Shown in pieces: positions 11,506 through 12,741 of a stretch of 64,000 nt of DNA. Source of the stretch: a virus (taxonomy: Duplodnaviria > Heunggongvirae > Uroviricota > Caudoviricetes); IMG/VR virus record IMGVR_UViG_2718218136_000001. One strand, 5' to 3'. The notes under the pieces are model-generated. The model made no database searches. It was not told the DNA's origin and saw only the letters and a program-made list of their open reading frames with translations. The number at the start of each line of letters is the position of its first letter. Position 1 is the stretch's first letter. A program made the position numbers and the translations under genes.

Positions 11506-12741
11506 TTAATTACTGACAGTTTCAGGTTTCGGGAAACTGAACAGTAAATCACGGTAGTATTCGTATTGTTTCTGGCGCAACTCGATTTCACGCGGAAGAC
11601 CTTCGGTGATGGAGTTAGTCAGGGTGTCGAAATTATCCAGAATCCGAACGATTTCAGACTGGATGGCAAGGGATTTTTCCGGATTATCCGGGCAGGGGAT
11701 TGGGATTTTTTTTTGAGAATAATTACTAATCCATTGGCGTTTATGGTCTCCCTCTGCGAATTCACTTGGTAATGTATTGAGCCAATAGTAAACATATTTC
11801 AGTAAGGTTTTATTATCATCACATGATGTAACCATTTTCATAGCCGATGATTTTGCCTTAAAGTCAAAATCCACCCATTTATTAGCGGTGGTGAAATCAT
11901 CAAAAATTATTACAGGTGCCTTTGATGCCTGATAAATACCATGAGTCTCATTTGTGTATCCAAGAATAAATGTTTTTCCGGCAGTAAGAACCGGGATGGT
12001 ATATGTGTCGTGATAATCTTTTGCTTTTACCAAATACTTTGTTGGCTGTTCATATTTGGTTATTTCCCCCAATGGCAACCACTCAACCTCAACCCCATCC
12101 AGCAATTTTTCCAGATAAATAGGTTTTTCCTGCTCCTCATCAAAACTCAACAACTGGTCGCGATAGTAGTTGTACTGTTTTTTACGCATGTTAAGCTCAG
12201 CGGTAAGCTCAGCGGTAAGCTCAGCGGTAAGTGCAGTAAACTTATTCAGAATCCGAACGATTTCAGACTGGATGGCAAGGGATTTTTCCGGATTATCCGG
12301 GCAGGGGATTGGGATTTTTTTTTGAGAATAATTACTAATCCATTGGCGTTTATGGTCTCCCTCTGCGAATTCACTTGGTAATGTATTGAGCCAATAGTAA
12401 ACATATTTCAGTAAGGTTTTATTATCATCACATGATGTAACCATTTTCATAGCCGATGATTTTGCCTTAAAGTCAAAATCCACCCATTTATTAGCGGTGG
12501 TGAAATCATCAAAAATTATTACAGGTGCCTTTGATGCCTGATAAATACCATGAGTCTCATTTGTGTATCCAAGAATAAATGTTTTTCCGGCAGTAAGAAC
12601 CGGGATGGTATATGTGTCGTGATAATCTTTTGCTTTTACCAAATACTTTGTTGGCTGTTCATATTTGGTTATTTCCCCCAATGGCAACCACTCAACCTCA
12701 ACCCCATCCAGCAATTTTTCCAGATAACTTAACTCGCTCAT
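11506..12741 (-). CDS. hsdS: Type I R-M specificity subunit with duplicated identical TRDs and a TAEL x3 central repeat
   Basis: 411 aa; two identical ~160-aa blocks; [13 protein letters not shown] between them; ATGA overlap with hsdM stop. Confidence 0.85.
11638..12118. repeat. 481-bp direct repeat copy 1 (encodes TRD2 of hsdS)
   Basis: Identical to 12247-12727 at period 609 bp, read directly. Confidence 0.9.
12193..12240. repeat. Tandem 12-bp repeat aagctcagcggt x3 plus a degenerate fourth unit (encodes TAEL x3 on the minus strand)
   Basis: Read directly; corresponds to the spacer-length-determining repeat of type IC HsdS. Confidence 0.9.
12247..12727. repeat. 481-bp direct repeat copy 2 (encodes TRD1 of hsdS)
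   Basis: Identical to 11638-12118. Confidence 0.9.

What the first reader, a model, noticed from the sequence alone, without database searches (positions are those of the whole stretch)
11706..12323. Two A9 homopolymer tracts inside hsdS coding sequence, one in each TRD copy
T9 on the plus strand at 11706-11714 and 12315-12323 (A9 in the coding strand, encoding QKKI). Homopolymer tracts of this length inside R-M specificity or mod genes are classic slipped-strand phase-variation switches; a 1-bp change in the upstream copy would truncate HsdS after the first TRD.
Basis: inference. Interest (0 to 1): 0.4.

Follow-up and report, generated by a model that had tools for sequence, protein, structure and literature searches.

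The report
Ordinary A9 run in duplicated hsdS
The two runs of nine A's are real, but they are one ordinary Gln-Lys-Lys-Ile coding stretch of the well-known EcoR124-type restriction specificity gene, present twice because the gene's DNA-reading domain is duplicated, and database sequences show it almost never changes length, so it is not a phase-variation switch.

Summary
T9 lies at 11706-11714 and 12315-12323, which is A9 on the coding strand (CAA AAA AAA ATC, Q-K-K-I), inside a 411-aa hsdS on the minus strand.

The two tracts are one feature copied by a 609-bp tandem duplication with a 481-bp perfect repeat. The duplicated domain is the N-terminal, GAA-reading TRD of EcoR124I/II (PDB 7BST). 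The operon hsdM-hsdS-hsdR sits next to phd/doc and terminase genes in a P1-like IncY phage-plasmid.

The same A9 travels with this TRD in 17 different HsdS proteins, including an allele one residue from the structurally solved EcoR124 S subunit. About 100 database sequences were inspected. All have A9 except two A8 alleles, and none has A10. The true phase-variable NgoAV hsdS tract departs from its modal length in 35% of strains.

The tract lies before the central coiled coil. A frameshift therefore gives a 149- or 164-aa stump with no dimerisation region, not a working half-HsdS.

Given this gene's codon usage, Q-K-K-I becomes A9 about 20% of the time.

The elements seen or known to vary here are two:
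- the 12-bp TAEL repeat (x3), the known EcoR124I/II spacer switch;
- the 609-bp TRD unit, seen in 1, 2 and 3 copies.

The finding is of low interest.

The parts
12315..12323 (-). Upstream A9 tract (T9 on + strand), codons Q140-K141-K142-I143 of hsdS, at the end of TRD copy 1 and before the central conserved region
11706..11714 (-). Downstream A9 tract, codons Q343-K344-K345-I346, at the same position in TRD copy 2
12247..12727 (-). Copy 1 of the perfect 481-bp direct repeat (N-terminal conserved segment, GAA-type TRD and start of the conserved helix)
11638..12118 (-). Copy 2 of the perfect 481-bp direct repeat, 609 bp (203 codons) from copy 1
12192..12231 (-). 12-bp tandem repeat x3.3 that encodes [12 protein letters not shown] in the central conserved coiled coil; this is the known EcoR124I/II spacer-length determinant
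   Evidence: PMC7383803
11506..12741 (-). hsdS, 411 aa, with two identical TRDs; Pfam Methylase_S; residues 1-196 nearly identical to the EcoR124 S subunit (PDB 7BST_A)
12738..14300 (-). hsdM (N6_Mtase, HsdM_N); overlaps the hsdS start by 4 nt
8268..11384 (-). hsdR, 1038 aa (HSDR_N, SWI2_SNF2, T1R_D3-like, EcoR124_C)

Best explanation
The A9 run is a passive coding feature, not a switch. It spells Gln-Lys-Lys-Ile (CAA AAA AAA ATC) at the end of the GAA-recognising target recognition domain (TRD) of the type IC EcoR124 family, in an AT-rich gene that uses AAA for 80% of its lysines.

It appears twice only because this hsdS allele carries a 609-bp tandem duplication. Both TRDs are therefore the same EcoR124 N-terminal TRD. 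The resulting covalently symmetric HsdS is predicted (inference) to direct methylation and restriction at a palindromic GAA-N(about 7)-TTC site. It would be the natural counterpart of the engineered EcoR124I_NT.

Like any A9, the tract is a mild hot spot for rare -1 slippage. Such slippage produces dead alleles: a stump of 149-164 aa without the coiled coil, or 352-373 aa without the C-terminal conserved region. There is no sign that this is frequent, reversible or selected.

The elements seen or known to vary at this locus are different ones:
- the 12-bp TAEL repeat, the known EcoR124I/II spacer determinant, with 1 to 3 copies among the alleles fetched;
- the 609-bp TRD unit, seen in 1, 2 and 3 copies, presumably changing by recombination between the 481-bp perfect repeats.
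For: Shown:
- The tracts lie at identical positions of a perfect 481-bp repeat.
- HsdS residues 1-196 match PDB 7BST_A (EcoR124 S) almost perfectly, including SQKKIPIP.
- IMG/VR loci L021 and L022 encode an HsdS 1 aa from 7BST_A and carry the same A9.
- A9 is retained in 17 distinct HsdS proteins, with different partner TRDs, 1-3 TAEL repeats and either TRD position.
- PLSDB: 39 of 39 full-coverage records show no indel.
- RefSeq E. coli: of 60 records inspected out of 67, 59 are A9 and 1 is A8.
- No exact A10 or A8 with the window's flanks was found.
- Metagenome contigs: 9 A9 and 1 A8. Viral contigs: 5 of 5 A9.
- One A8 allele sits in an hsdS that is also cut by IS1F.
- Codon usage in hsdS is AAA 33 to AAG 7 and CAA 5 to CAG 10, so P(A9 | QKKI) is about 0.33 x 0.8^2, or 0.2. 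TRD GC content is 36% against 47.6% for the window.
- Another TRD has an A7 run at the equivalent KK position (L003).
- Frameshift products are 149 or 164 aa, ending before the central conserved region.
- The functional half-subunit S_NT needs residues 1-215.
- Copy-number variants of the 609-bp unit exist, and the 1-copy genes equal the predicted repeat-deletion product with 0 mismatches in two lineages.
- EcoR124I and EcoR124II differ by one TAEL repeat (N6 versus N7 spacer).
Against: - A9 meets the tract length of 9 or more used to call hsd genes potentially phase-variable.
- Two independent A8 alleles were found, so the tract does slip.
- The run is unbroken by synonymous changes (CAG, AAG) in every allele seen, although nearby positions vary. 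This could hint at selection for the run, though it is also expected from recent common ancestry of the TRD and from AAA preference.
- Assembled consensus sequences cannot reveal low-level heterogeneity within a culture.
- Seven of the 67 E. coli records were not individually inspected.
Confidence: 0.85

Rival explanations
1. Slipped-strand phase variation. Replication slippage at either A9 tract switches HsdS ON and OFF, or switches specificity, at high frequency and reversibly, as a contingency locus for the phage-plasmid's R-M system.
For: The tract length meets the threshold of 9 or more. An indel truncates HsdS. Two A8 alleles exist in databases. There is precedent for a homopolymer switch in hsdS in NgoAV.
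Against: Only about 2% of roughly 100 sequences vary in length, against 35% for NgoAV. No A10 was found. The tract is inherited unchanged in the EcoR124-type alleles. It lies before the coiled-coil region, so truncation gives no functional half-HsdS. One A8 allele is in a locus also destroyed by IS1. The hosts are mismatch-repair-proficient Enterobacteriaceae, where A/T runs of 9 slip orders of magnitude less often than G/C tracts in Campylobacter or Neisseria (own knowledge; the rates cited are for C. jejuni).
Confidence: 0.05
2. Transcriptional slippage. E. coli RNA polymerase stutters on the T9 template, so a fraction of hsdS mRNAs carry A8 or A10. This lowers full-length HsdS yield (twice over in this allele) and makes short TRD-only peptides. 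It would be a non-heritable dosage effect rather than a genetic switch.
For: Runs of 9 A or T are the length at which slippage becomes efficient and at which selection against such runs in coding regions becomes evident in many bacteria. T. thermophilus dnaX uses an A9 this way (PMC1088944). The run is conserved in all alleles.
Against: The shifted frames have no conserved or long extension; stops come after 22 codons (-1) or 7 codons (+1). This fails the criterion used to call functional slippage. Conservation is explained by protein sequence plus AAA codon bias. The EcoR124I papers read here mention no truncated S product. The same paper stresses that many such runs have no assignable function.
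Confidence: 0.08
3. Programmed -1 ribosomal frameshifting on the in-frame A_AAA_AAA heptamer produces a defined short product.
For: The heptamer A AAA AAA is in the correct register in the zero frame.
Against: There is no stimulatory structure at the usual 5-9 nt spacing. The only feature is a 5-bp hairpin about 15 nt downstream, and the fold z-score is -1.6. The -1 frame ends after 22 codons with no conserved product.
Confidence: 0.02

Closest known systems
EcoR124I / EcoR124II (type IC R-M) HsdS, PDB 7BST chain A
   Same: The N-terminal conserved segment, the GAA-reading TRD (including SQKKIPIP and its A9), the central conserved region with TAEL repeats and the C-terminal conserved region are near-identical. 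HsdR carries the EcoR124_C domain. The gene order is hsdM-hsdS-hsdR.
   Different: The second TRD is not the RTCG-reading TRD. It is a second, 100% identical copy of the first, preceded by a carried-along copy of the N-terminal segment (…[21 protein letters not shown]…). The operon is on a P1-like IncY phage-plasmid, not the plasmid R124.
EcoR124I_NT (engineered symmetric system, S_NT residues 1-215, recognises GAAN7TTC)
   Same: Both present two copies of the same N-terminal GAA TRD to DNA, which implies a palindromic GAA…TTC target.
   Different: In the window the two TRDs are covalently joined in one 411-aa chain, and the coiled coil is made of one central (TAEL x3) helix and one C-terminal helix rather than two central helices. 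The spacer length is therefore not established. The natural 208-aa one-copy relatives (TRD plus C-terminal region) are the closer analogue of a dimerising half-subunit.
NgoAV hsdS polyG phase variation (Neisseria gonorrhoeae)
   Same: Both have a homopolymer inside a type I hsdS, where a 1-bp indel changes the length of the S protein.
   Different: The NgoAV tract follows TRD1 and the coiled-coil region (208 aa), so both states are functional with different specificities, and 35% of 92 strains depart from the modal length. Here the tract precedes the coiled coil, truncation gives a stump of 149-164 aa, and about 2% of sequences vary.
Transcriptional-slippage A9/T9 sites (T. thermophilus dnaX, IS elements)
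   Same: Both are a run of nine A's in the sense strand of a coding sequence.
   Different: There is no conserved alternative-frame product here, and no evidence of use.

Membership tests
SSR-driven phase-variable hsdS (NgoAV type) | Homopolymer or SSR within the ORF, of a length known to slip (9 or more for mononucleotides in the REBASE survey) | tested here: met
   A9 occurs twice; threshold from PMC7383803
SSR-driven phase-variable hsdS (NgoAV type) | Tract length is polymorphic among strains or sequences that carry the same gene | tested here: not met
   2 A8 and 0 A10 among about 100 inspected sequences, against 32 of 92 off-mode for NgoAV
SSR-driven phase-variable hsdS (NgoAV type) | The tract lies after TRD1 and the central coiled coil, so the frameshifted product is a functional half-HsdS | tested here: not met
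   The tract is at codons 140-143 and the products of 149 or 164 aa end before the TAEL region; the functional S_NT spans residues 1-215
SSR-driven phase-variable hsdS (NgoAV type) | Measured reversible switching within a clonal culture | not testable with these tools
   Needs deep sequencing or colony assays
Type IC R-M system (EcoR124 family) | HsdS with two TRDs separated by a conserved coiled-coil region that carries TAEL repeats | tested here: met
   Pfam Methylase_S x2; TAEL x3
Type IC R-M system (EcoR124 family) | High sequence identity of the subunits to EcoR124I/II | tested here: met
   HsdS against 7BST_A gives E = 7e-156, and the N-terminal half is near-identical; HsdR has the EcoR124_C domain, E = 2e-71
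Type IC R-M system (EcoR124 family) | Genetic complementation or antibody cross-reaction with family members (the classical definition) | not testable with these tools
   Experimental
Symmetric / half-HsdS systems (EcoR124I_NT-like) | Two identical TRDs presented to DNA | tested here: met
   The 481-bp repeat is 100% identical, so the TRD protein sequences are identical
Symmetric / half-HsdS systems (EcoR124I_NT-like) | Palindromic bipartite target (GAA-Nx-TTC) is methylated and restricted | not testable with these tools
   Needs a SMRT or nanopore methylome; no depletion of GAAN7TTC in the window (25 observed, 24.6 expected), which is uninformative
Programmed transcriptional slippage site | Conserved, functional ORF extension in a shifted frame downstream of the run | tested here: not met
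   Stops come after 22 codons (-1) and 7 codons (+1); criterion from PMC1088944

The most novel reading that the evidence does not exclude
The A9 run may be kept unbroken because it is useful. Combined replication and transcription slippage at two tracts per gene would throttle or stochastically silence HsdS in this phage-plasmid. Together with the 12-bp TAEL repeat and the 609-bp TRD repeat, this would form a layered variation system for a mobile R-M module: ON/OFF through A9, spacer length through TAEL, and subunit architecture through TRD copy number.
Probability: 0.04. Interest if true: 0.5.

Novelty: new member of a known kind. Interest (0 to 1): 0.15.

Why it matters
As a phase-variation candidate it does not matter much. 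It is a worked example of why the rule 'homopolymer of 9 or more in an hsd gene means phase-variable' over-calls in mismatch-repair-proficient enterobacteria, and why the position of a tract relative to the HsdS coiled coil must be checked.

The side result is of modest interest to R-M specialists. Nature has made the covalent, symmetric version of the engineered EcoR124I_NT specificity subunit. Its TRD unit is found in 1, 2 and 3 copies on P1-like phage-plasmids, which fits homologous recombination as the source of change at this locus.

Tried and rejected
1. **Pattern scan of one genome per species** (genome contigs) for the tract with variable length found 0 hits. It is uninformative, because the representative genomes lack this TRD.

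2. **Phage collection search** with hsdS found only partial matches to conserved regions in 4 records and no full TRD.

3. **Target avoidance.** GAAN4-10TTC counts in the window are all near expectation; N7 is 25 against 24.6. This gives no clue to spacer length.

4. **-1 ribosomal frameshift signal.** There is no convincing downstream structure, so this was rejected.

5. **Quantitative E. coli homopolymer indel rates.** Lee et al. 2012 (PMC3478608) and MacWilliams & Bickle 1996 (PMC452210) are not held. Only the qualitative statement was available that indel rates rise exponentially with run length (PMC8510543).

6. **Internal re-initiation.** I considered whether a frameshift at the upstream tract could be rescued by re-initiation that yields the second half as a half-HsdS. 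No ATG and no well-spaced Shine-Dalgarno sequence precede copy 2 by inspection. This was not pursued and remains untested.

7. **Assembly-error explanation for the A8 in L005.** Over 2 kb compared with a near-identical relative, the only indel is in the tract. A long-read homopolymer error therefore cannot be excluded, but it is not part of a general pattern of errors.

Full report
**Observation**

The + strand carries T9 at 11706-11714 and at 12315-12323. Both lie in a 411-aa ORF on the minus strand (11506-12741). On that strand they read CAA AAA AAA ATC, giving Q140-K141-K142-I143 and Q343-K344-K345-I346.

They are the only homopolymer runs of 9 or more in the 64-kb window. Base composition alone predicts about 0.56 such A/T runs. 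The two tracts are not independent events. They occupy the same position in two copies of a perfect 481-bp direct repeat (11638-12118 and 12247-12727), offset by 609 bp or 203 codons. Effectively there is one tract, which is unremarkable by chance.

**What the gene is**

The ORF has two Pfam Methylase_S domains. An hsdM (12738-14300; N6_Mtase, HsdM_N) overlaps its start, and an hsdR (8268-11384; HSDR_N, SWI2_SNF2, EcoR124_C) follows it.

Against the PDB, the only hit is the S subunit of EcoR124 (7BST chain A, E = 7e-156). Residues 1-196 are almost identical, including [27 protein letters not shown] and the TAEL region. The second half aligns only in the C-terminal conserved region. The gene is therefore a type IC (EcoR124-family) hsdS.

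In this allele the usual second TRD is replaced by a second, 100% identical copy of the N-terminal GAA-reading TRD. The central region carries three 12-bp repeats (12192-12231) that encode TAEL x3.

The neighbours are Phd, Doc and terminase subunits. Identical hsdS genes sit on eight E. coli plasmids of about 95-118 kb; the members of this hsdS family that were fetched are mostly non-mobilizable IncY. The window is thus a P1-like phage-plasmid.

**Is the A9 a switch? Comparative evidence**

The 73-nt neighbourhood of the tract was searched in several collections.

| Collection | Sequences inspected | A9 | A8 | A10 |
|---|---|---|---|---|
| PLSDB plasmids, full-coverage records | 39 of 39 | 39 | 0 | 0 |
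| RefSeq complete E. coli genomes | 60 of 67 | 59 | 1 | 0 |
| Metagenome contigs (variable-gap pattern, 6-12 nt) | 10 | 9 | 1 | 0 |
| IMG/VR viral contigs | 5 | 5 | 0 | 0 |

- The PLSDB records come from E. coli, E. marmotae, E. albertii, Klebsiella, Cronobacter, Raoultella and Leclercia, and none shows an indel.
- The E. coli A8 record is NZ_CM130024.1. Over 2 kb its only indel relative to a near-identical relative is in the tract, and its hsdS is also cut by IS1F.
- Queries built with A8 or A10 found no exact match.
- The metagenome A8 is L017, a one-copy gene.

Allowing for overlap between collections, about 100 sequences were inspected. Two are A8, none is A10, so about 2% vary.

The benchmark for a proven homopolymer switch in hsdS is NgoAV. 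Of 92 gonococcal genomes, 60 have G7, 15 have G6, 7 have G8 and 10 have G9, so 35% are off the mode (PMC9577141).

The A9 is present in 17 distinct HsdS proteins among the loci fetched. These have 1, 2 or 3 TAEL repeats and many different partner TRDs. In one allele (L003) the TRD sits in the second position. Two IMG/VR loci encode an HsdS that differs by 1 residue from 7BST_A and carry the same A9. The first is met and the second is very nearly met.

**Position and consequences**

A -1 or +1 change in the upstream tract gives a protein of 164 or 149 aa. In the downstream tract it gives 373 or 352 aa.

The upstream products stop before the central conserved coiled coil. The engineered half-subunit that works, S_NT, needs residues 1-215, that is the TRD plus the central conserved region. 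It dimerises through that coiled coil and binds HsdM (PMC2877798 and PMC3320862). In NgoAV, and in the SSR-bearing hsdS genes surveyed in REBASE, the repeat lies after the coiled coil and between the TRDs, so both reading frames give active subunits.

An indel here would therefore simply kill HsdS. It would not switch specificity (inference from those data).

**Why the run exists**

hsdS is AT-rich: 39% GC overall and 36% in the TRD, against 47.6% for the window. It uses AAA for 33 of 40 lysines and CAA for 5 of 15 glutamines. Every Ile codon starts with A. The peptide Q-K-K-I is therefore expected to be written as A9 about 20% of the time. Another TRD has an A7 run at the equivalent KK motif (L003). 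This is enough to explain the tract without invoking selection for slippage.

**Rivals**

*Transcriptional slippage.* Runs of nine A or T are the length at which RNA polymerase slippage becomes efficient and at which coding regions begin to avoid them (PMC1088944). Some heterogeneity of hsdS mRNA is therefore plausible. The shifted frames end after 22 and 7 codons with no conserved product, which fails the criterion for functional use. The same paper notes that many such runs have no assignable role.

*Ribosomal frameshifting.* The in-frame A_AAA_AAA heptamer could in principle support -1 frameshifting. The only downstream structure is a 5-bp hairpin about 15 nt away, and the fold z-score is -1.6.

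*Replication rates.* Published rates quoted for 9-nt tracts come from Campylobacter. In E. coli, indel rates rise exponentially with run length (PMC8510543). In mismatch-repair-proficient cells they are far lower than contingency-locus rates; this last point rests on my own knowledge and was not computed here.

**What varies at this locus**

1. *The 12-bp TAEL repeat.* EcoR124I (N6 spacer) and EcoR124II (N7 spacer) differ by one TAEL repeat (PMC7383803). Alleles with 1, 2 and 3 repeats occur among the loci fetched.

2. *The 609-bp TRD unit.*
   - One-copy genes of 627 bp, encoding a 208-aa half-HsdS made of the TRD plus the C-terminal conserved region, occur on several plasmids and metagenome contigs.
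   - A three-copy gene (1845 bp, 614 aa) occurs on CP099227.1. Sibling plasmids from pooled pig-farm soil samples in the same series (CP099233, CP099239) are exactly 609 bp shorter.
   - Two lineages differ by 24 substitutions. In each, the observed one-copy gene equals, with zero mismatches, the product predicted for a deletion between the repeats of that lineage's two-copy gene.
   - Lineage-specific substitutions occupy matching positions in both copies.

These data fit recombination between the repeats (inference; no rate was measured).

**Predicted function**

By analogy with EcoR124I_NT (GAAN7TTC) and with the TAEL x3 / N7 relation of EcoR124II, the window's enzyme should recognise GAA-N7-TTC. 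The spacer is uncertain, because spacer length does not follow simply from coiled-coil length in half-HsdS constructs (PMC6158711). Counts of GAAN4-10TTC in the window show no avoidance.

**Verdict**

The finding is ordinary. The tract already belongs to the EcoR124-type GAA TRD. The allele with the duplicated TRD is a new member of the type IC family and a natural counterpart of an engineered symmetric enzyme.

Noticed in passing
window 11638-12118 and 12247-12727; L001 (CP099227.1), L027 (NZ_CP074035.1), L028 (NZ_CP010179.1), L026 (NZ_CP086387.1): The 609-bp TRD unit of hsdS occurs in 1, 2 or 3 copies on closely related P1-like plasmids. In two lineages the 1-copy gene is exactly the predicted repeat-deletion product of the 2-copy gene (0 mismatches in 627 bp). 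A 3-copy plasmid is exactly 609 bp longer than its siblings, which come from pooled pig-farm soil samples in the same series.
   Followed up: partly
window 12192-12231: A 12-bp tandem repeat x3 encodes [12 protein letters not shown] in the central coiled coil. This is the known EcoR124I/II spacer-length determinant. Related alleles carry 1, 2 or 3 repeats.
   Followed up: partly
L003 (NZ_CP085065.1) 987-2276: The same GAA-type TRD, with its A9, sits in the second (C-terminal) TRD position behind a different first TRD. It carries along a copy of the N-terminal segment [13 protein letters not shown]. This looks like a trace of TRD shuffling or circular permutation, and the allele is a plausible parent of the duplicated allele.
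   Followed up: no
L005 (NZ_CM130024.1) about 1533 and 2022-2719; L017 (OGIT01001073.1) 1848-1892: These are the only two tract-length variants found, and both are A8. One is in a chromosomal hsdS that is also truncated by IS1F. The other is in a one-copy hsdS on a P1-like metagenome contig.
   Followed up: partly
L002 (NZ_CP010146.1) about 1516: A one-copy hsdS is inactivated by a T insertion near the start (AGTTAT to AGTTTAT) and has been re-annotated from a downstream TTG. This shows that null hsdS alleles arise by lesions other than the A9.
   Followed up: no
window 14477-15078 and 16960-19637: Phd/Doc toxin-antitoxin genes and P1 pacA/pacB-like terminase genes lie immediately beside the hsd operon. 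The type I system therefore occupies a cargo slot next to the addiction module of a P1-like phage-plasmid.
   Followed up: partly
L006 (NZ_CP145663.1) 1-1118: A chromosomal relative has an intact hsdS with a single TAEL repeat, but its hsdM is annotated as frameshifted.
   Followed up: no
window, whole: The predicted target GAAN7TTC is not depleted in the window (25 observed, 24.6 expected).
   Followed up: yes
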